From assembly GCA_034433695.1 (NCBI GenBank), contig DAOUAK010000038.1, positions 2,758 through 66,757 of the forward strand: a stretch of 64,000 bases of DNA, read 5' to 3'. Source of the stretch: Chloroflexia bacterium (lineage in GTDB: Bacteria > Chloroflexota > Chloroflexia > DTKN01). The notes under the pieces are model-generated. The model searched no databases, was not told the DNA's origin, and saw only the letters and a list, made by a program, of their open reading frames with translations. This document shows positions 35,672 through 43,291 of the stretch, piece after piece (the stretch's first letter is position 1; the number at the start of each line of letters is the position of its first letter). The position numbers were made by a program, and so were the translations under genes.

Positions 35672-36946
35672 ATGGATGTACATGCCGTTCGCGCCGATTT
35701 TCCCATCCTCCAACGCACCGTCCACGGCAAGCCGCTCATCTACCTGGATAACGCGGCCACCACCCAGCGGCCGCGCCAGGTCCTGGAGACGCTGGTAACC
35801 TTCTACAGCCACTACAACGCCAACATCCACCGCTCTCCCCACCTTTTGGGCCAGGAAGCCACCCTGCTTTATGCGCAGGCCCACGAAAACGTGGCCCGCT
35901 TCATCGGGGCGGAGGACGAGGGGGAGGTGATCTTTGTCCGCAACACCACCGAAGCCGTCAACCTGGTGGCAAACTCGCTCCTGCGCCGCGAAAGCGGGCC
36001 GCTGCGGTTGCTGCCGGGCGATGAGGTGCTCATCACCGTCATGGAGCACCATTCCAACCTGGTGCCCTGGCAGGCCCTTTCCCAGGAGGCCGGCCTGACC
36101 TTGCGCGTGGTAGACATCCGGGAAGACGGCACCCTAGACCTGGCCGACCTGGAGGCCCAATTGGGGCCGCGCACCCGGCTGGTCTGCTGTGCCCACGTCT
36201 CCAACGTCCTGGGGACGATCAACCCGGTAGCGGAGATTGCCCGTCGGGTCCACGCATCCGGTGCCCTCCTTCTGGTGGATGGGGCGCAGTCGGTGCCCCA
36301 CATGCCGGTGAACGTGCGGGAACTGGAGTGCGACTTCCTGACCTTTTCCGGGCACAAGATGCTGGCCCCCTTCGGCATCGGCGTCCTCTACGGCCGGCGG
36401 GCCCTCCTAGAACGGATGGCTCCCTTCCTCTACGGCGGGGATATGATCGCCGATGTCACGCTGGAGCATTCCACCTGGAACGAGTTGCCCTGGAAGTTCG
36501 AGGCCGGAACGGCCAATGTGGCCGGCGGCATCGCCCTGGGCGGAGCCGTGGACCTCTGGAGCGGCCGGAAACTGGTGGGGGCCGTGGATTACCTCCAGGA
36601 GATCGGCATGGAGCAGGTCCAGGCTCACGAGCGGGAGTTGCTGGCCCAACTCCTGCAGGGACTCCAGGCTATCCCCCGCGTCCGCGTCTACGGCCCCCTG
36701 GAGCCGGAACGGCGGGGGGCAGCCGTCTCCTTCACGGTGGAGGGCAGCAACCCTCACCTGATCGCCCAGTTTCTGGACGACGAGGGCATCGCCGTGCGGG
36801 CCGGCGGCCATTGCGCCCACCCGTTGGCCCGGCGGTTGGGCGTGGCGGGAACGGTGCGCGTCAGCCCTTATATCTACAACACTTCCGAGGAAATCGAGCG
36901 CTTCCTGGATGTTCTGGAGGGAATTGTGAGGAGGCAGGCGCTGTGA
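35672..36946 (+). CDS. sufS: Cysteine desulfurase, SufS-like (class V aminotransferase)
   Basis: FPILQRTVHGKPLIYLDNAATTQ, PLP-Lys region FSGHKMLAPFGIGVLYGR and active-site RAGGHCA. Confidence 0.85.
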   Translation: MDVHAVRADFPILQRTVHGKPLIYLDNAATTQRPRQVLETLVTFYSHYNANIHRSPHLLGQEATLLYAQAHENVARFIGAEDEGEVIFVRNTTEAVNLVANSLLRRESGPLRLLPGDEVLITVMEHHSNLVPWQALSQEAGLTLRVVDIREDGTLDLADLEAQLGPRTRLVCCAHVSNVLGTINPVAEIARRVHASGALLLVDGAQSVPHMPVNVRELECDFLTFSGHKMLAPFGIGVLYGRRALLERMAPFLYGGDMIADVTLEHSTWNELPWKFEAGTANVAGGIALGGAVDLWSGRKLVGAVDYLQEIGMEQVQAHERELLAQLLQGLQAIPRVRVYGPLEPERRGAAVSFTVEGSNPHLIAQFLDDEGIAVRAGGHCAHPLARRLGVAGTVRVSPYIYNTSEEIERFLDVLEGIVRRQAL

Positions 36947-37332
36947 GTACCCGATATACCCCGACGCTGCTGGAGCACTTTACCCACCCCCGCCACGTAG
37001 GGATGCTGGAGGATGCCGACGCTTCCGGCCAGGGAGGGGGAGGACCGCTCTGTCCGGAGGATATGGCCTACGTCTGGATCAAGGTCCGCGAGGGCCGCAT
37101 CGTCGAAATCGGCCACAAGACGATGGGCTGCCCGGTCGCCATTGCCTCCAGCAGTCTGACCTGCTCCCTGGCCGAGGGCAAAACCCTGGAGGAGGCGCTC
37201 CAGATCACCCCGGAGGTGGTCATCGAGGCCCTGGGAGGCGTCCCGGAGCGCAAAGCCGATTCGGTGGTGGCTCCGGAAGCCCTGCGCCGGGCCATCGAAT
37301 CGTACCTGGCCTCCCATGTCTCGGGTGAATGA
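36943..37332 (+). CDS. sufU: SufU/NifU-like Fe-S cluster scaffold
   Basis: GTG start overlapping the sufS stop. LEHFTHPRHVG...CPEDMAYVWIKV...GCPVAIASSS matches the IscU/SufU three-Cys pattern. Confidence 0.75.
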   Translation: MSTRYTPTLLEHFTHPRHVGMLEDADASGQGGGGPLCPEDMAYVWIKVREGRIVEIGHKTMGCPVAIASSSLTCSLAEGKTLEEALQITPEVVIEALGGVPERKADSVVAPEALRRAIESYLASHVSGE

Positions 37333-37344
37333 ACCTCAAATCCT

Positions 37345-37367
37345 ATCGAGGGCCCAGGGCCCTCGAT
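37345..37367 (+). terminator. Perfect 10-bp GC-rich hairpin just after sufU (terminator candidate without a strong U-tract)
   Basis: ATCGAGGGCC-cag-GGCCCTCGAT, 13 nt downstream of the sufU stop. Confidence 0.35.
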
Positions 37368-37405
37368 CTTCGGGTGCCGCCCTCCAACTGTGTAACCTAT
37401 CACAT

Positions 37406-37434
37406 TTGACAAAGGGAAGACTTCGTGGTATAGT
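37406..37434 (+). promoter_or_regulatory. Near-consensus sigma70 promoter TTGACA-N17-TATAGT
   Basis: ttgaca aagggaagacttcgtgg tatagt. Lies ~285 nt upstream of the PRC-MgtE_N-CBS gene start, which leaves a long leader. Confidence 0.45.
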
Positions 37435-37441
37435 TTATTTA

Positions 37442-37719
37442 TCCCCGTTCGGCCTGGCCGGCGGGGTTGGAGGTTGCGTTTCGATGGACGAGGATTATCA
37501 ACGTAGTCGGGGACTGTGCGAGTCCGGGTGCGGGGCATCCGACCCGGGGGAGGTGGCTATGCCGATAGCCACCTGATCTTTTCCCCCGGTTCCCCCGCCT
37601 GAGGTCCCCCAGTCCCCTCCGAGATCGAAAGTACGCAAAACTTCAAAGCCATCTCATAGGATGTACAGGTGGAGTACCGGGTCCAGCCGTATGGGCCTGG
37701 GAACCACGGGAGGTGGACC
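37442..37719 (+). promoter_or_regulatory. Structured 5' leader with internal intrinsic-terminator-like hairpin (candidate riboswitch/attenuator)
   Basis: ~110 nt of GC-rich nested hairpins. Then GGTGGCTAT-gccg-ATAGCCACC followed by TGATCTTTT (37552..37582). The enclosing CCGGGGGA/TCCCCCGG arms can alternatively pair across the U-tract. Confidence 0.35.
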
Positions 37720-38976
37720 GTGCCGTATGTCAGCACGCTCCTGGGGAAGCCTGTTACCGACGTGGAAGGCAACCGCGTCGGCCGGCTGCAGGACCTCGTT
37801 GCCTCGCTCCGGGGTGCCATGCCCCATCCCATGATTGTGGCCCTGGCCGTCCGGAATCCCGAGGGCCTTCGCCTGGTCCCCATTTCTTCCGTGGCCGTCC
37901 TGATCGCTCCGGCCATTCCCCTCCGCCATCGCCTGCGGGATATTCCCTCTTACACCCCGGGCGAGCAGGAACTGTACCTGGCCCGCGATGTGCTCGATAA
38001 GCAGATCATTGATACCCGTGGAGCGCGCGTGGTGCGGGTCAACGACCTGGAACTGGCCCGGATCAACAACCACTTTTATGTGGCCAATGTAGACGTCGGT
38101 GGGCTGGGACTTTTGCGACGCCTGGGACTTGCAGGCCCGGTCGAGAAGATCGCCCGCTGCCTGAAGCGCCCGCTCCGATCCGTCAGCATCTCCTGGGACG
38201 CGGTCGAACTCCTCCCTGGCCAGAACTCGATGCGCCTGAAGGTGCCGGGGGAGAAACTGGCCGAACTGCACCCGGCCGACCTGGCCGAAATCATCAGCGA
38301 CCTCAGCCGCGTTGAGGGAAGCCGGTTGATCGAGACACTCGATGTCAAGACCCTGGCCGATACCCTGGAGGAGATCGAGCCGGACTTCCAGGCCAGCCTG
38401 ATCGAAGCCATGCCCGACGAGAAGGTGGCCGATGTGCTGGAGGAAATGGCCCCCGACGAGGCGGCGGACCTTCTGGCCGAACTGCCCCAGGAACGCAGCC
38501 GGGAACTCCTGGAACTGATGGAGGATGAGGAGGCCGAGGACGTTCGGAAACTGCTGGCCTATCCGGAGGACACGGCCGGCGGCATTATGAACACCGAGTT
38601 CGTCGCCATCCGCCCCAACCTGACGGCGGAGGAGGCCATCGCCGTCCTGCGGGAGACGGCCCACGAGGCCGAGACCATCTATTACGTGTACGTTACGGAT
38701 GAGGAGGGCCATCTCCTGGGGGTGTTCTCCCTGCAGGACCTGGTGCTGGCCCAGCCCAAGACGCCGGTAACCGACTTTATGCACCACCGCGTGGTCAACG
38801 TCCATCTGCGCGACAGCCAGGACAAGGTGGCCCAGATCGTGGCCAAGTACAATTTGCTGGCCGTACCGGTGGTGGACGATGAGGGTCGGATGCACGGCAT
38901 CGTCACCGCCGATGACGCCCTGGATAAGATCATTCCCACCGCCTGGAAGAAACGCCTGCCGAAGATGTGGGGGTAA
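37720..38976 (+). CDS. Soluble PRC-barrel (x2) + MgtE_N + tandem-CBS protein, with no MgtE membrane domain
   Basis: GTG start with GGGAGGTGG RBS. PRC-like LLGKPVTDVEGNRVGRLQDL. MgtE N-domain acidic helices (PDEKVADVLEEMAPDEAADLLAELP). Two CBS motifs. Ends before any TM region. Confidence 0.7.
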   Translation: MPYVSTLLGKPVTDVEGNRVGRLQDLVASLRGAMPHPMIVALAVRNPEGLRLVPISSVAVLIAPAIPLRHRLRDIPSYTPGEQELYLARDVLDKQIIDTRGARVVRVNDLELARINNHFYVANVDVGGLGLLRRLGLAGPVEKIARCLKRPLRSVSISWDAVELLPGQNSMRLKVPGEKLAELHPADLAEIISDLSRVEGSRLIETLDVKTLADTLEEIEPDFQASLIEAMPDEKVADVLEEMAPDEAADLLAELPQERSRELLELMEDEEAEDVRKLLAYPEDTAGGIMNTEFVAIRPNLTAEEAIAVLRETAHEAETIYYVYVTDEEGHLLGVFSLQDLVLAQPKTPVTDFMHHRVVNVHLRDSQDKVAQIVAKYNLLAVPVVDDEGRMHGIVTADDALDKIIPTAWKKRLPKMWG

Positions 38977-38978
38977 AG

Positions 38979-40235
38979 ATGACGTTCGGGCAACGTTTCA
39001 GGCCGTTCTGGGTACGCCTCCTGGCCTTCCTGTCGGTCATTGGGCCGGGCATCATCACCGCGAATGTGGATAACGATGCCGGCGGCATCACGACCTATTC
39101 CGTCGCCGGTGCCCACTATGGCTACGATCTGCTGTGGATGATGCCGCTGGTCGCGCTGGCCCTGATCGTGGTGCAGGAGATGAGTGCCCGGCTGGGAGTG
39201 GTCACCGGACGGGGGCTGGCCGCGCTGATTCGGGAGAACCTGGGGGCGCGCCTGACGGCGGTGGTCATCGGCATCCTGGTGCTGGCCAATCTGGCCAACA
39301 CGGTGAGCGAATTTGCCGGCATCGCCGCCGGCATGGAGATCTTCGGGGTCAGCAAGTACATTTCGGTGCCGCTGGCCGGCCTGGCGGTGTGGCTGCTCGT
39401 CATCCGGGGCAACTACCGTTCGGTGGAAAAGGTCTTCCTGGTGGCCAGCGGACTTTACCTTTGCTATGTGGCCTCGGGCCTCCTGGCCCGGCCCCGGTGG
39501 GAAGAGGTCCTCCACGCCCTTGTCCGGCCCTCCTTCCGCCTGGAGAGCGGCTTTATGACCATGGCCATCACCATCGTGGGAACGACAATCGCCCCCTGGA
39601 TGCAGTTCTACCAGCAGTCGGCCATCGCCGACAAGGGGTTGAAGCCGGCCGATTACCGTTACGAGCGGCTGGATGTGATCGTGGGCTCCCTCTTTGCCGT
39701 CTTTGTGGCGGCCTTTATCACCATTTCCTGCGCTGCCACCATCTACGGCCGCGCTCACATCGAGACGGCCCAGGACGCTGCCCGGGCGCTGGGTCCGCTG
39801 GCCGGCCCCTACGCTTCCACGCTCTTTGCCTTCGGCCTCCTCAATGCCTCGCTTTTTTCGGCAGCCATCTTGCCCCTCTCCACCGCCTATGTGGTCTGCG
39901 AAGCCTTCGGATGGGAATTGGGCCTGGGCCACCGGTGGAAGGAAGCCCCCATCTTCTTCGGGACTTTTACGGCCCTGATCGTCCTGGGAGGCGGGGTGGT
40001 CCTTTTGCCGATCCCTTCGCTGGTCCAGGCGATGATGTTCAGCCAGACCCTCAACGGCATCCTTCTGCCGCTCGTCCTGGTGGTGATGCTCCGCCTGGTC
40101 AACGACCGTCGCCTGATGGGCCATTTCGTCAATGGTCGGGTGCTCAATGCCTTCTCCTGGGCCTCGGCGGGATTGGTCATCCTGCTCACGGCCCTTCTGG
40201 TGCTCAGCCCCTTTCTGCCCGTTCCGGGCACTTGA
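38979..40235 (+). CDS. mntH: NRAMP-family divalent metal (Mn2+/Fe2+) transporter
   Basis: GPGIITANVDNDAGGITTYS and LLWMMPLVALALIVVQEMSARLGVVTG are NRAMP hallmarks. ~11 TM helices. Confidence 0.85.
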   Translation: MTFGQRFRPFWVRLLAFLSVIGPGIITANVDNDAGGITTYSVAGAHYGYDLLWMMPLVALALIVVQEMSARLGVVTGRGLAALIRENLGARLTAVVIGILVLANLANTVSEFAGIAAGMEIFGVSKYISVPLAGLAVWLLVIRGNYRSVEKVFLVASGLYLCYVASGLLARPRWEEVLHALVRPSFRLESGFMTMAITIVGTTIAPWMQFYQQSAIADKGLKPADYRYERLDVIVGSLFAVFVAAFITISCAATIYGRAHIETAQDAARALGPLAGPYASTLFAFGLLNASLFSAAILPLSTAYVVCEAFGWELGLGHRWKEAPIFFGTFTALIVLGGGVVLLPIPSLVQAMMFSQTLNGILLPLVLVVMLRLVNDRRLMGHFVNGRVLNAFSWASAGLVILLTALLVLSPFLPVPGT

Positions 40236-40249
40236 TTCGGAGGAGGAAG

Positions 40250-41968
40250 ATGGCCCGTCCTCGCCGTTTTGCGCCGTTCCTTCCCCCGGGCCCCCTCTTC
40301 GATGTGGGGGACCTGGCGGTGCTCGTCGCCCTGGCCGGCATCCTTTACCTGGGCGTGCGGGTAGCGATGGGCACGCCGGCGATCTTGCCGGGGCCGGAGA
40401 TTCGCCGGGAGGCCTGGGCCTTGCCCGTCTATGCCCTCTTCTCTCTGGGTCGGATGCTGGCGGCCTATATTCTCTCCCTGTCCTTCAGCCTCCTTTACGC
40501 CCGTATCGCCGCCCGGCGGGCGCTGGCCGGCCAGGTCATGCTTCCCCTCCTGGATGTATTGCAATCGGTGCCGATCCTTTCCTTCCTGCCGGTGGTGCTC
40601 CTCGGACTGTCGGCCGTCCTGCCTTCCGGTCTGGCGGCCGAACTGGCTGCCATCGTCCTCATCTTCACCAGCCAGGCCTGGAACCTGACCTTTTCCTTCT
40701 ACCAGGCCCTCCAGACCATCCCCAAGGAACTGGACGAAGCCGCCCGCACCTTTCGCCTGTCCGACTGGCTACGCTTTCGCCGACTGGAACTGCCCTTTGC
40801 CGCACCGGGCCTGATCTGGAACACCATCATGTCCTGGGCCGGCGGCTGGTTCTTCCTGATGGCCGCCGAATCCTACACAGTGGGAGAGCGGGACTTTCGC
40901 CTGCCCGGCCTGGGGGCCTACCTCCAGGAAGCCGCCCAGGCCGGAGACGTGCAGGCCCTTCTCCTGGGGGTAAGCGCCCTGGTCGTCCTGATCGTCCTCC
41001 TGGATCAACTGCTCTGGCGGCCGCTTTTGGCCTGGGGAGAACGCTTCCAACTGGAGATGGTCGAATCGCAAGAGCCGACCTCCTCCTGGCTCTATAGCCT
41101 CCTCCAGCGTTCACGTCTTCTTTCCGGACTCCAGCGCCGGCTGTTCCGGCCGCTCCTGGAATGGCTGGACATGCGTTTTTCCCGGCCGCCCCGGGAGATT
41201 GCGGAGGGGAATACGCCTTTACTGCGCCGGCTGGCCGTGTATACCCTGGGGGGTATCCTGGCCGGCGGCCTCCTCTATGGTGCCTTTTGGGCCGGCGGCT
41301 GGCTCCTTTCGTTGCCGGTAGCCACCTGGGGCGAGATCGCCCTGGGTACACTGGCTACTTTCCTGCGAGTCGCCGTGGCTATCGGCCTTTCCCTGCTCTG
41401 GACGGTGCCATTGGGCATCCTGATCGGCACCCGTCCTCGCCTGGCCGCCCTATTGCAGCCGGTGGTGCAAATTCTGGCTTCCGTCCCGGCCACGGCCCTC
41501 TTCCCCATCTTTCTCCTGCTCCTTTTGCGCCTGCCGGCCGGGTTACAAATTTCCTCCCTTCTCCTTCTGATGACCGGAAGCCAGTGGTACCTCCTCTTCA
41601 ATGTCATCGCCGGCGCCTCGGCCATCCCCCAGGACCTGGAATTCAGCACCAAACTCCTGGGAGTACACGGCTGGGGGCGATGGCGCATCCTCCTTCTGCC
41701 CGGCATCTTTCCCTACTTGGTGACCGGGATGATCACCGCCAGCGGCGGTGCCTGGAACGCCAGCATCGTCGCCGAATATGTGGTCTTTGGCGGGCAGAAG
41801 CAGAGCGTCACCGGCCTGGGGGGGCTGATCTCCCTGGCTACGGAAGAAGGAAACTATCCCCTCCTCCTGGCTGCGACGCTTACGATGATCGTTACCGTCG
41901 TGTTGCTCAACTGGCTCTTCTGGCGCCGGCTTTACCGCCGGGCCGAGGAACAGTATCGGATGGATTAG
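40250..41968 (+). CDS. ABC transporter permease with two tandem permease domains fused (NitT/TauT-like)
   Basis: ATG with GGAGGAGG RBS. 572 aa with two repeats of a ~6-TM binding-protein-dependent permease unit. The 39134 ORF N-terminal extension overlaps NRAMP and is rejected. Confidence 0.8.
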   Translation: MARPRRFAPFLPPGPLFDVGDLAVLVALAGILYLGVRVAMGTPAILPGPEIRREAWALPVYALFSLGRMLAAYILSLSFSLLYARIAARRALAGQVMLPLLDVLQSVPILSFLPVVLLGLSAVLPSGLAAELAAIVLIFTSQAWNLTFSFYQALQTIPKELDEAARTFRLSDWLRFRRLELPFAAPGLIWNTIMSWAGGWFFLMAAESYTVGERDFRLPGLGAYLQEAAQAGDVQALLLGVSALVVLIVLLDQLLWRPLLAWGERFQLEMVESQEPTSSWLYSLLQRSRLLSGLQRRLFRPLLEWLDMRFSRPPREIAEGNTPLLRRLAVYTLGGILAGGLLYGAFWAGGWLLSLPVATWGEIALGTLATFLRVAVAIGLSLLWTVPLGILIGTRPRLAALLQPVVQILASVPATALFPIFLLLLLRLPAGLQISSLLLLMTGSQWYLLFNVIAGASAIPQDLEFSTKLLGVHGWGRWRILLLPGIFPYLVTGMITASGGAWNASIVAEYVVFGGQKQSVTGLGGLISLATEEGNYPLLLAATLTMIVTVVLLNWLFWRRLYRRAEEQYRMD

Positions 41969-41980
41969 GGGAGGAAACCA

Positions 41981-43291
41981 ATGGCCCAGAACGGGGTTCT
42001 TCTGGAATTGCGCAACATCCGCCAGGTCTACGGACGCGGCCCTCGTGCCATCGTCGCCGTGGAGGGGGTTAATCTAACGGTGCGGCGGGGCGAGTTCGTA
42101 GCCCTGCTGGGACCTTCCGGCTGCGGAAAAAGCACCCTCCTGCGCATCATCGCCGGCCTGAACGTGCCTACGGAAGGGGAGGTGCTCTACCACGGCCGGC
42201 CGTTGCGGGGAGTCAACCCTCATGCTACCATCGTCTTCCAGACCTTTGCCCTTTTCCCCTGGCTGACGGTGCTCGAAAACGTCGAGGTGGCCCTCCAGGC
42301 CCGGGGCATCCCCTTGCCCGAGCGCCGGGAGCGGGCCCTGGCCCTCCTGGACAAGGTTGGTCTGGATGGCTTTGAAAACGCCTATCCCCGAGAACTTTCG
42401 GGGGGGATGCGTCAGAAGGTGGGTTTTGCCCGGGCCATGGCCGTCGAGCCGGAACTTTTGTGCCTGGACGAACCGTTTTCTGCCCTGGATGTGCTTAGCG
42501 CCGATGCCCTGCGGGGCGAACTCGTCGAACTGTGGACCGGAGGCCAGATTCCCACCCAGGCCATCATTCTGGTTACCCACAACATCGAGGAGGCCGTCTT
42601 CCTGGCCGACCGCATCGTGGTGATGGAGACGCGACCGGGGCGCATCGCCGCCGAGGTGGTGGTCGGTCTCCCCCATCCCCGCCAGCGCAAGGGAGAGGAT
42701 TTCCTGACCACCGTGGATCGGGTCTATGCGGCGGTGGCCGGCCAGACCCAGCCGCCGGCCGTGGAACTGGGCACGGCCCCCGGCGAGCCAGGCCGGACGC
42801 GGGCCCTGCCCCCGGCCTCCGTCAGTGCCCTCTCCGGGCTGATCGAGCACCTGGACGAAGAGGTGGGCAACCGGGAAGACCTCTACCGCCTGGCCGACGA
42901 CCTGCGCATGGAGATCGATGAACTCTTGCCGGTGGTGGAGGCCGGGGAACTGCTCAATTTCCTCCGGGTGGACCAGGGCGATGTCATCTTGACGCCGCTG
43001 GGAGAGACCTTCGCCGAGGCCAGCATCCTGGCCCGTAAGGAAATCTTTGCCTCCCGTGCCCGCCGCATCCCGCTCATCCGCTGGCTCCTGAAGGGGCTGC
43101 GGGCCGCCCCGGAGGGCCGGGTGCCGCGCCGGGTCTTCCAGGATGTCCTGGAGTGGGAGTTTACCCCGGAGGAGGCGAAGGTACAGATGGATCAGGCCAT
43201 CGCCTGGGGGCGCTACGGCGAACTCTTCGGCTACGACGACGACCGGGACCTGCTCTACCTGGAGACGAACGGCTCGGGATCGGCCGCCTGA
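41981..43291 (+). CDS. ABC transporter ATP-binding protein (NitT/TauT-type) with ~180-aa C-terminal AAA-associated extension
   Basis: Walker [10 protein letters not shown], signature LSGGMRQKV, Walker [13 protein letters not shown]. Extra C-terminal domain follows [12 protein letters not shown]. Confidence 0.85.

What the first reader, a model, noticed from the sequence alone, without database searches (positions are those of the whole stretch)
37333..37719. Long structured leader with its own promoter and an internal terminator hairpin, a candidate metal-sensing riboswitch/attenuator
After a sufU-proximal hairpin, a TTGACA-N17-TATAGT promoter lies ~285 nt upstream of the next start codon. 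The leader has ~110 nt of nested GC hairpins, then GGTGGCTAT-gccg-ATAGCCACC followed by TGATCTTTT. Flanking CCGGGGGA/TCCCCCGG arms could form a competing structure that sequesters the U-tract. This is a classic riboswitch geometry. The downstream operon encodes Mn/Fe- and Mg-related proteins, so a Mn (yybP-ykoY), Mg (M-box) or NiCo element is plausible, but I could not match a consensus by eye. It could also be a ~140-nt sRNA.
Basis: seen in the sequence. Interest (0 to 1): 0.55.

Follow-up and report, generated by a model that had tools for sequence, protein, structure and literature searches.

The report
Non-M-box leader of a magnesium-transporter operon
The 285-base stretch in front of a probable magnesium-uptake operon of an uncultured Anaerolineae bacterium is a real, selectively conserved, highly structured mRNA leader that matches no known riboswitch, and it sits where some related genomes carry the classic magnesium (M-box) riboswitch.

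Summary
There is a near-consensus promoter (37406-37434), a ~285-nt leader, a 10-bp hairpin (37551-37574) followed by GATCTTTT, and flanking arms.

No Rfam family matches: not M-box, yybP-ykoY, NiCo or the mgtA Mg sensor. The terminator-like site is not conserved in relatives. The arms extend the hairpin rather than compete with it.

The conserved unit has four parts:
- a 26-nt single-stranded core containing an AUG;
- an 8-bp helix P1 that closes a ~110-nt rod, G-rich on the 5' strand and C-rich on the 3' strand;
- an invariant GGAGGUG followed by a 5-codon mini-ORF at the apex;
- a 24-30-codon uORF running from the core AUG.

It occurs in only four distinct sequences, always upstream of the PRC/MgtE_N/CBS gene and an NrmT-type NRAMP, with different upstream neighbours. 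Eight related loci carry an M-box at that position instead.

Best reading: an undescribed, lineage-restricted, probably Mg2+-responsive leader. It most likely works through uORF translation and exposure of the C-rich tract (Rho-type), like the mgtA/corA leaders. The mechanism is inferred, not shown.

The parts
37345..37367 (+). Perfect 11-bp palindromic hairpin just after the sufU stop codon. It is the likely end of the suf transcript and has no real U-tract.
   Evidence: I4; sequence
37406..37434 (+). Sigma-70-type promoter TTGACA-17-TATAGT with a TG extension. The predicted transcription start is near 37441.
   Evidence: Identical hexamers and spacing occur in L081. Conservation with L081 begins at the -35 hexamer.
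37443..37466 (+). 5'-terminal GC hairpin (CCCCG...CGGGG) right after the predicted start.
   Evidence: L081 keeps a hairpin here with a changed sequence.
37469..37473 (+). GGAGG, 10 nt upstream of the uORF1 AUG. It is a possible ribosome-binding site, present only in the window and L081.
   Evidence: the 20 nt upstream of the ATG in the four sequences
37483..37508 (+). Conserved core GAUGGACGAGGAUUAUCAACGUAGUC (consensus RAUGGACRAGGAU..YC.A.GUA), not part of the conserved helices.
   Evidence: Identity is 25/26 to L081 and 19-20/26 to L008/L088. Four-fold-degenerate sites in the adjacent gene are 0.72 and 0.61 identical. Alignments.
37484..37576 (+). uORF1, 30 codons (MDEDYQRSRGLCESGCGASDPGEVAMPIAT). 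It covers the whole G-rich 5' strand of the rod and ends at the apex.
   Evidence: An ORF from the same AUG exists in L081 (30 codons), L008 (24) and L088 (25). Openness alone is not significant (P about 0.4-0.6).
37509..37516 (+). P1 5' strand GGGGACUG.
   Evidence: 96.9% of cells paired; pair 34:142 is A-U, G-U or G-C in different sequences
37531..37546 (+). Alternative local hairpin P2 (CGGG...CCCG) within the G-rich strand.
   Evidence: three of four pairs are changed on both sides between the two clades (one split)
37544..37589 (+). Arms CCGGGGGA / TCCCCCGG that enclose the apical hairpin and pair the internal GGAGG with C-rich sequence.
   Evidence: (I8)
37549..37555 (+). Invariant GGAGGUG (internal Shine-Dalgarno-like sequence, SD2).
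   Evidence: Invariant in all four sequences. It lies 64-67 nt after the core AUG in all four.
37559..37576 (+). Five-codon mini-ORF AUG CCG AUA GCC ACC UGA, 3 nt after SD2 and in frame with uORF1.
   Evidence: the start is AUG, AUG, CUG or GUG and the stop is UGA, UGA, UAA or UGA, at identical positions in the four sequences
37551..37582 (+). Apical 10-bp hairpin plus GATCTTTT. This is the terminator-like site.
   Evidence: Not flagged in the relatives.
37577..37636 (+). C-rich, G-poor 3' strand (45% C, 20% G), a candidate Rho-loading tract.
   Evidence: 45% C and 13-23% G in all four sequences, although this segment could be aligned at only 26-48% identity
37610..37617 (+). P1 3' strand CAGUCCCC.
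37708..37722 (+). Shine-Dalgarno sequence GGGAGGUGG and the GUG start of the first gene.
37720..38976 (+). Soluble PRC-barrel + MgtE_N + CBS-pair protein (MgtE cytoplasmic-domain fragment).
38967..40235 (+). NRAMP-family transporter of NrmT type (DAGG in helix 1, TTIA-PW in helix 6). Its start overlaps the preceding stop by 10 nt.
   Evidence: the DxxG-TxxA/T motif definition is from PMC8806188

Best explanation
The element is the 5' leader of the mgtE-fragment/nrmT operon. It belongs to a small, undescribed family of structured leaders that, in a few Anaerolineae lineages, occupies the place where related operons carry an M-box. It most likely adjusts operon expression to cytoplasmic Mg2+ (or a similar divalent cation).

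Proposed working (inferred):
1. After the promoter and a 5' hairpin comes a conserved single-stranded core holding an AUG.
2. The following ~110 nt form a rod in which a G-rich 5' strand pairs with a C-rich, G-poor 3' strand. The rod also buries an internal GGAGGUG and a 5-codon mini-ORF at its apex.
3. When ribosomes translate the uORF that starts in the core and runs along the whole G-rich strand, the rod cannot form. The C-rich tract is then free for Rho, and in this window the weak intrinsic terminator may add to the effect. Transcription stops before the transporter genes.
4. When uORF translation fails, for instance by ribosome drop-off on the acidic MD(E/K)D N-terminus at low Mg2+, the rod closes. 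The C-rich tract is hidden and the operon is read.

Shown: the promoter, the conservation, the helices, the open reading frames, the strand composition and the M-box at related loci. Inferred: the signal, the role of translation and the role of Rho.

The confidence of 0.4 is for the whole statement. My own breakdown is about 0.7 that it is a cis-regulatory leader, about 0.5 that the signal is Mg2+, and about 0.25 for the specific uORF/Rho mechanism.
For: **Cis-linkage.** The element lies upstream of the same gene in four distinct sequences. The upstream neighbour differs in at least two: sufU in the window and moeA in L081. L088 has an unnamed divergent gene upstream.

**Selection.** Core, P1 and SD2 are far better conserved than four-fold-degenerate sites of the adjacent gene. 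The intervening segments diverge but keep their G-rich and C-rich composition and their pairing.

**Structure.**
- 90.8% of cells are paired, against 41-60% when partners are slid.
- P1 has one A-U / G-U / G-C series, and P2 has three doubly changed pairs.
- The rods fold with z = -4.4, -3.2, -1.0 and -3.0.

**Cargo.** The NRAMP carries the NrmT motif DxxG-TxxA. mgtE-fragment+nrmT operons are known M-box targets (PMC4072509).

**M-box at related loci.** RF00380 scores 130.6 bits in L079. nhmmer finds it in L065, L069, L024, L039, L042, L055 and L100.

**Open reading frames.** A uORF from the core AUG spans the G-rich strand in all four sequences. Its first six residues after Met hold 3 D/E/P in all four. 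The mini-ORF start and stop are kept through AUG->CUG/GUG and UGA->UAA changes.

**Precedent.** The mgtA/mgtL and corA/corL leaders combine a uORF, alternative stems, pyrimidine-rich rut sites and Mg2+-dependent ribosome destabilisation on acidic or proline N-termini (PMC11552253; 10.1101/2021.02.02.429294). An M-box that works through a uORF and Rho is also described (PMC12810186).
Against: - There are only four distinct sequences, effectively two clade pairs, so the covariation rests on one or two evolutionary events.
- An open frame of 24-30 codons is expected by chance in this composition (P = 0.37-0.58).
- L008 and L088 lack a good Shine-Dalgarno sequence before the uORF AUG.
- The variable sites in the first 12 codons fall mostly at codon positions 1 and 2, not 3 (read from the alignment). 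This points to RNA-level rather than peptide-level constraint.
- Three D/E/P residues in the first six is only mildly unusual (P = 0.035-0.06).
- Presence and use of Rho in this organism was not tested.
- The ion could be Mn2+. An NrmT-like protein with an MgtE fragment and no M-box behaved as a Mn2+ transporter in PMC4072509.
- If the window's hairpin acts as an intrinsic terminator, a ribosome reading through it would give the opposite regulatory sign.
Confidence: 0.4

Rival explanations
1. A true riboswitch. The core, P1, P2 and a pseudoknot between core AGGAU(U) and the (G)AUCYU that follows the apical hairpin would form an aptamer for Mg2+ or another ligand. The aptamer would control the apical hairpin/terminator or Rho access without any need for translation.
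For: - RNA-level conservation of the core, with codon third positions conserved (read from the alignment; segment identities).
- The candidate pseudoknot pairs in 85.7% of cells, with G-C/G-U exchanges.
- Geometry is fixed, with 64-67 nt from core to SD2 in all four sequences.
- An M-box sits at the same place in related loci.
- The window has a terminator-like site.
Against: - No Rfam match.
- The conserved core lies outside the closing helix rather than in a junction.
- The pseudoknot has no doubly compensated pair, and L081 breaks one pair.
- The terminator is not conserved.
- No alternative pairing competes with the terminator hairpin.
Confidence: 0.2
2. A protein-controlled leader. The conserved purine-rich core with its tandem GGA motifs (AUGGAC.AGGAU), together with GGAGGUG, would be binding sites for a trans-acting RNA-binding protein. 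Candidates are a CsrA-like factor or the operon's own PRC/MgtE_N/CBS product.
For: - The single-stranded conserved core has two invariant GGA motifs, and further GGA motifs lie at SD2 and the gene's Shine-Dalgarno sequence.
- L008's GGACAAGGAUGC resembles the CsrA SELEX consensus RUACARGGAUGU as I recall it. This is from memory and was not tested.
Against: - No candidate protein was identified or tested.
- The GGA motifs are not presented in hairpin loops in the predicted folds.
- The resemblance is short and purine-rich, and so is expected near Shine-Dalgarno-like sequences.
Confidence: 0.12
3. A non-switching structured 5' UTR. The 5' hairpin and rod would only stabilise the mRNA or set a fixed translation level, and conservation would reflect that plus shared ancestry.
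For: - Narrow distribution: only four of about 100 homologous loci examined.
- Most relatives manage with short leaders.
- No consistent sequestration of the main gene's Shine-Dalgarno sequence.
Against: - A 26-nt unpaired core is conserved above the neutral rate across about 61% four-fold-site identity.
- The invariant internal GGAGGUG plus a mini-ORF with a preserved start and stop are not needed for stability.
- An M-box sits at the equivalent place in related loci.
Confidence: 0.15
4. An independent ~140-nt small RNA, transcribed from the promoter and ended at the 37551-37582 terminator. The operon would be transcribed from elsewhere.
For: A strong promoter and a terminator-like hairpin 140 nt downstream.
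Against: - No second promoter before the gene.
- The terminator is absent in L081, L008 and L088.
- Conservation and P1 extend past the hairpin to 37617.
- The element is always linked to the same downstream gene.
Confidence: 0.05

Closest known systems
M-box (ykoK) Mg2+ riboswitch, Rfam RF00380
   Same: Same genomic role. It is a leader in front of mgtE-fragment + nrmT operons (PMC4072509). It is found at the equivalent position in eight related Chloroflexota loci.
   Different: There is no sequence or structure match. An M-box is a compact three-helix aptamer followed by a terminator. This element is a single-stranded core plus one long G:C-asymmetric rod with embedded ORFs.
Enterobacterial mgtA leader with mgtL, and corA leader with corL (Rfam Mg_sensor, which I recall as RF01056)
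   Same: A long leader of an Mg2+ transporter, a short uORF with an acidic or proline-rich N-terminus, and pyrimidine-rich tracts that are either paired or exposed. In those systems uORF translation is inversely coupled to downstream expression via Rho (PMC11552253; 10.1101/2021.02.02.429294).
   Different: No homology was detected, since no Rfam hit appeared in the E-value scans. The phylum and the transporter are different. One rod replaces stem-loops A/B versus C. There is an extra invariant GGAGGUG + 5-codon mini-ORF. None of the functional steps was tested here.
Mycobacterium tuberculosis pe20 Mbox with uORF and Rho-dependent termination
   Same: An Mg2+-linked leader that combines control of a small uORF with Rho-dependent termination (PMC12810186).
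   Different: That system has a bona fide M-box aptamer. None is present here.
Classical ribosome-mediated attenuators (leader peptide + intrinsic terminator)
   Same: The leader ORF ends inside a hairpin followed by a T-run in the window.
   Different: No 1:2 / 2:3 / 3:4 alternative stems were found. The T-run is not conserved. The peptide has no run of regulatory codons.

Membership tests
M-box riboswitch (RF00380) | Covariance-model match to the three-helix Mg2+ aptamer | tested here: not met
   No hit at the gathering threshold or at E <= 10. The same search scores 130.6 bits on L079.
M-box riboswitch (RF00380) | Located upstream of Mg2+ transporter genes | tested here: met
   The downstream genes are the MgtE_N/CBS fragment and an NrmT-type NRAMP.
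yybP-ykoY Mn2+ riboswitch (RF00080) | Covariance-model match to the four-helix junction aptamer | tested here: not met
NiCo riboswitch (RF02683) | Covariance-model match | tested here: not met
mgtA/corA-type Mg2+ leader (Mg_sensor; mgtL/corL) | Sequence/structure homology to the enterobacterial leader | tested here: not met
   No Rfam family matched on the + strand beyond chance.
mgtA/corA-type Mg2+ leader (Mg_sensor; mgtL/corL) | Short uORF with a D/E/P-rich N-terminus inside the leader structure | tested here: inconclusive
   A uORF with MD(E/K)D..(P), 3 of 6 D/E/P, occurs in all four sequences. The chance probability is 0.035-0.06 and the open frame itself is not significant. L008 and L088 have a poor Shine-Dalgarno sequence.
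mgtA/corA-type Mg2+ leader (Mg_sensor; mgtL/corL) | Pyrimidine-rich rut tract alternately paired or exposed; Rho-dependent termination | not testable with these tools
   A C-rich, G-poor tract (45% C, 13-23% G) paired in the rod is present in all four. Rho action cannot be computed.
Intrinsic-terminator attenuator / transcriptional riboswitch platform | GC hairpin immediately followed by a U-tract, conserved among homologues | tested here: not met
   Flagged in the window only and absent in L081, L008 and L088.
Intrinsic-terminator attenuator / transcriptional riboswitch platform | Mutually exclusive antiterminator structure | tested here: not met
   The hairpin persists in all folds, with pair probability 1.0. 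The 5' arm is unpaired in the nascent-transcript fold.
Repeated palindromic element (REP/MITE) | Multiple copies in the genome | tested here: not met
   No other copy in the 64-kb window. Only the window could be tested.

The most novel reading that the evidence does not exclude
The element is a new class of Mg2+-sensing leader that evolved in Anaerolineae as a replacement for the M-box in front of the mgtE-fragment/nrmT operon. It would be either a pseudoknotted metal-sensing RNA or the first ribosome-destabilisation (mgtL-like) Mg2+ sensor outside the Proteobacteria, coupled to a G-rich/C-rich rod that gates Rho access.
Probability: 0.3. Interest if true: 0.75.

Novelty: new variant of a known kind. 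Interest (0 to 1): 0.5.

Why it matters
Very few kinds of Mg2+-responsive leader are characterised. The literature read here covers the M-box and the enterobacterial mgtA/corA leaders.

A third, unrelated solution in front of the same type of operon that the M-box controls elsewhere would show convergent evolution of cation sensing. It would also give a natural M-box-versus-new-leader comparison within one gene family. It could further help decide which NrmT transporters handle Mg2+ rather than Mn2+.

The design is compact and easy to test with reporters. It combines a uORF along a G-rich strand, a C-rich partner strand, and an invariant internal ribosome-binding site with a 5-codon ORF.

Tried and rejected
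- **Known RNA families.** Rfam was searched at the gathering threshold over the window and over 40 loci, and in E-value mode over three leaders. Nothing relevant appeared. The only sub-threshold hit is Streptomyces Scr5676 on the minus strand (23 bits against a gathering score of 56), which looks like a generic GC hairpin.
- **tRNA/tmRNA.** None.
- **6S-like rod RNA.** Considered because of the 180-nt rod. Rejected because there is no Rfam hit, the element is fixed upstream of one gene, and the basal stem is not conserved in L081 or L008.
- **Repeat or mobile palindrome.** No second copy.
- **Fur/DtxR-type operator in the core.** The TGATAAT half-site seen in the reverse complement of the window's core is not kept in L008 or L088 (my reading).
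- **Conserved leader peptide.** The variable sites are at codon positions 1 and 2, and only MD.D...GL is shared.
- **Conserved sequestration of the main gene's Shine-Dalgarno sequence.** The folds of the four 3' parts disagree.
- **Antiterminator for the apical hairpin.** None found.
- **More homologues.** The following searches added none.
  - blastn and nhmmer over 80 genome loci found only L008.
  - Two protein searches and eight successful contig look-ups added only L088.
  - Model R1 found nothing new.

Full report
**1. What is in the sequence**

The window is a 64% G+C stretch from an uncultured Anaerolineae (Chloroflexota) genome.

Gene order around the finding:
- sufS-like cysteine desulfurase, ending at 36946;
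- NifU_N/SufU-like protein, 36945-37332;
- the 387-nt intergenic region under study;
- a 418-aa soluble protein with PRC-barrel, MgtE_N and two CBS domains, 37720-38976;
- an NRAMP-family transporter, 38967-40235, overlapping the previous stop codon;
- an ABC permease and an ABC ATPase.

- A perfect 11-bp palindrome follows sufU at 37345-37367.
- The promoter TTGACA-17-TATAGT has a TG extension at 37406-37434. It is the only such site in 1.5 kb, against 0.3 expected.
- The hairpin at 37551-37574 is followed by GATCTTTT.
- The arms CCGGGGGA / TCCCCCGG are there.

Extending it to 37650 reveals a 5' hairpin followed by a ~180-nt rod with z = -4.1. The conserved part of that rod, 37509-37617, has z = -4.4.

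**2. It is not a known RNA**

Rfam 15 gives no match at the gathering threshold anywhere in the window. At E <= 10 there is nothing meaningful in the leader. The two most distant homologous leaders also give nothing. M-box, yybP-ykoY, NiCo and the enterobacterial Mg sensor are therefore excluded as family assignments. There are no tRNA or tmRNA genes and no second copy of the element in the window.

**3. Conservation and distribution**

The downstream protein is highly conserved across Anaerolineae, with 70-78% identity for hundreds of clusters.

I fetched 80 genome loci and 18 further loci by look-up of nine related proteins. Two more loci came from the DNA pattern scan. The leader element turns up in only four distinct sequences.

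| Source | Protein identity to window | Upstream gene |
|---|---|---|
| window | - | sufU |
| L081 lineage (also L082-L087) | 89% | moeA |
| L008 | 71% | not determined |
| L088 | 74% | unnamed divergent gene |

In L081 the similarity begins exactly at the -35 hexamer.

A covariance model built from the four sequences (R1) finds nothing else in 640 kb of related loci or in the window. Most relatives have short leaders of about 110-320 nt without the element.

Against a neutral yardstick the element is under selection. Four-fold-degenerate sites of the adjacent gene are 0.72 identical (window vs L081) and 0.61 identical (window vs L008 or L088). The identities of the leader segments are listed below.

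| Segment | vs L081 | vs L008 / L088 |
|---|---|---|
| 26-nt core | 25/26 | 19-20/26 |
| P1 (each strand) | 8/8 | 6-7/8 |
| SD2 GGAGGUG | invariant | invariant |
| Segments between these | 48-70% | 26-43% |

The fast-evolving segments nevertheless stay 44-45% G on the 5' side and 45% C, 13-23% G on the 3' side. Each sequence still folds into one rod.

**4. Anatomy of the conserved unit (window coordinates)**

- Promoter, then a 5' hairpin at 37443-37466.
- GGAGG at 37469-73, present in the window and L081 only.
- Core RAUGGACRAGGAU..YC.A.GUA at 37483-37508.
- P1, GGGGACUG / CAGUCCCC, at 37509-16 and 37610-17.
- A G-rich strand with an optional local hairpin P2 at 37531-46.
- The invariant GGAGGUG at 37549-55.
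- Three nucleotides later, a five-codon ORF at 37559-76 that forms the apical hairpin.
- A bulge carrying the stop codon and the T-run.
- The C-rich strand.

On the four-sequence alignment 90.8% of cells pair, against 41-60% when partners are slid. P1 contains one A-U / G-U / G-C series. P2 has three pairs changed on both sides. These changes correspond to one or two evolutionary splits, so this is supportive evidence rather than proof.

A possible pseudoknot joins core AGGAU(U) to the (G)AUCYU after the mini-ORF stop. It pairs in 85.7% of cells but has no compensated pair.

**5. Open reading frames**

From the core AUG an ORF of 30, 30, 24 and 25 codons runs along the G-rich strand in the four sequences. 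It ends at the apex in every case. In L088 its stop overlaps the mini-ORF start (GUGAUG).

Arguments against a conserved peptide:
- Openness alone is uninformative in this composition (P = 0.37-0.58).
- The variable sites in the shared first 12 codons lie mostly at codon positions 1 and 2.

Two points still favour a translated element. All four peptides start MD(E/K)D and have three D/E/P among the six residues after Met. The mini-ORF keeps a start-type codon (AUG, AUG, CUG, GUG) and a stop (UGA, UGA, UAA, UGA) at identical positions behind an invariant Shine-Dalgarno sequence. The chance of an NUG start plus a stop after four sense codons is roughly 0.065 x 0.02 per independent lineage. The same bases could, however, be constrained by the hairpin and the pseudoknot.

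**6. The terminator**

The hairpin plus T-run is flagged only in the window. L081 has GAGUUUCCCC, L008 has AAUCCUGC, and L088 has a different apical arrangement. None is flagged as a terminator.

Folding nascent transcripts shows no structure that competes for the hairpin's 5' arm. The flanking arms simply extend the hairpin. A structure-only terminator/antiterminator switch is therefore not supported.

**7. Cargo and context**

The NRAMP has DAGG in helix 1 and TTIA-PW in helix 6. This is the DxxG-TxxA/T signature that defines NRAMP-related Mg2+ transporters, including the His-to-Trp change (PMC8806188). Operons of an MgtE cytoplasmic-domain fragment plus nrmT were discovered because many of them sit behind M-box riboswitches (PMC4072509).

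Among the homologous Chloroflexota loci fetched here, the M-box is present upstream of the same gene in eight:
- L079, by Rfam at 130.6 bits;
- L065, L069, L024, L039, L042, L055 and L100, by nhmmer at E from 1e-51 to 3e-8.

L100's protein is 77% identical to that of L088. M-box-bearing and new-element-bearing operons are therefore close relatives. The new leader sits in an M-box-equivalent position. That is the main reason to expect a Mg2+-related signal.

One caveat applies. An M-box-less NrmT-like transporter with an MgtE fragment behaved as a Mn2+ transporter.

**8. Mechanism**

The best-fitting model borrows the logic of the mgtA/mgtL and corA/corL leaders. In those systems efficient uORF translation at high Mg2+ exposes pyrimidine-rich Rho-loading sites. 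Ribosome drop-off on acidic or proline N-termini at low Mg2+ lets an alternative structure hide them.

Here the uORF covers exactly the G-rich strand whose partner is the C-rich, G-poor strand. Translation and rod formation are therefore mutually exclusive by construction. This is an inference. Nothing in the data shows translation, Rho action or a response to Mg2+.

The rivals are set out with their evidence in the rival-explanations section: a translation-independent riboswitch with a pseudoknot, a protein-binding leader, a non-switching stability element, and an sRNA.

**9. Verdict**

The element is a real, selected, lineage-restricted structured leader of a probable Mg2+-uptake operon. It is not a member of any described RNA family. 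It is functionally analogous to the M-box by position and to the mgtA/corA leaders by design.

The very small number of homologues is the main limit on confidence. A database-wide covariance-model search and simple reporter experiments would settle the open points.

Noticed in passing
L079:2570-2746; also L065, L069, L024, L039, L042, L055, L100:819-981: M-box riboswitches sit upstream of the orthologous PRC/MgtE_N/CBS-NrmT operon in eight related Chloroflexota loci. In L079 the M-box is followed by a canonical terminator (CCCCGGTTGAGCATTGGGGATTTTTT).
   Followed up: partly
L087:4455-4610: A strain of the L081 lineage keeps the promoter and leader almost unchanged, but the operon is deleted from about codon 27 of the MgtE_N gene to the last ~19 codons of the NRAMP gene. 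The fusion is out of frame, so the leader now runs into the ABC permease. This could be a real deletion or an assembly artefact.
   Followed up: partly
L002, L091 (-167 from the start codon); L089 (-204): The closest relatives that lack the element (76-78% protein identity) have a TTGACA-17-TACAAT promoter. About 10 nt downstream lies a hairpin GUGGCC..GGCCAC plus UCUUU(U)GA(G)UUU. It resembles the window's apical hairpin and tail, and in L002 and L091 it lies at the same distance (-167) from the start codon. It may be a homologous ancestral hairpin.
   Followed up: no
window 38967-38976: The NRAMP/NrmT start (GTG 38967) overlaps the end of the MgtE_N/CBS gene by 10 nt, which suggests translational coupling. 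In relatives the two genes are separated by 20-220 nt.
   Followed up: no
window ~40300-43291: An ABC permease with two BPD_transp_1 domains directly follows nrmT on the same strand. After it comes a 436-aa ORF that I read as an ABC ATPase with a long C-terminal extension, judged from its sequence only. The same permease follows in the L087 lineage. It may be part of the same transcription unit.
   Followed up: no
window 37480-37591 (minus strand): A weak sub-threshold Rfam hit to Streptomyces sRNA Scr5676 (23 bits against a gathering score of 56, E = 0.029) on the strand opposite the rod. I judged it a generic GC-hairpin match.
   Followed up: partly
L008:2510-2530; L088:2590-2610: L008 and L088 share an extended -10 promoter (GGTGTAGTATAAT) about 95 nt upstream of the core. 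The window and L081 use TTGACA/TATAGT about 48 nt upstream. The promoter and the 5' spacer therefore differ between the two clades, while the core-to-apex geometry is fixed.
   Followed up: no
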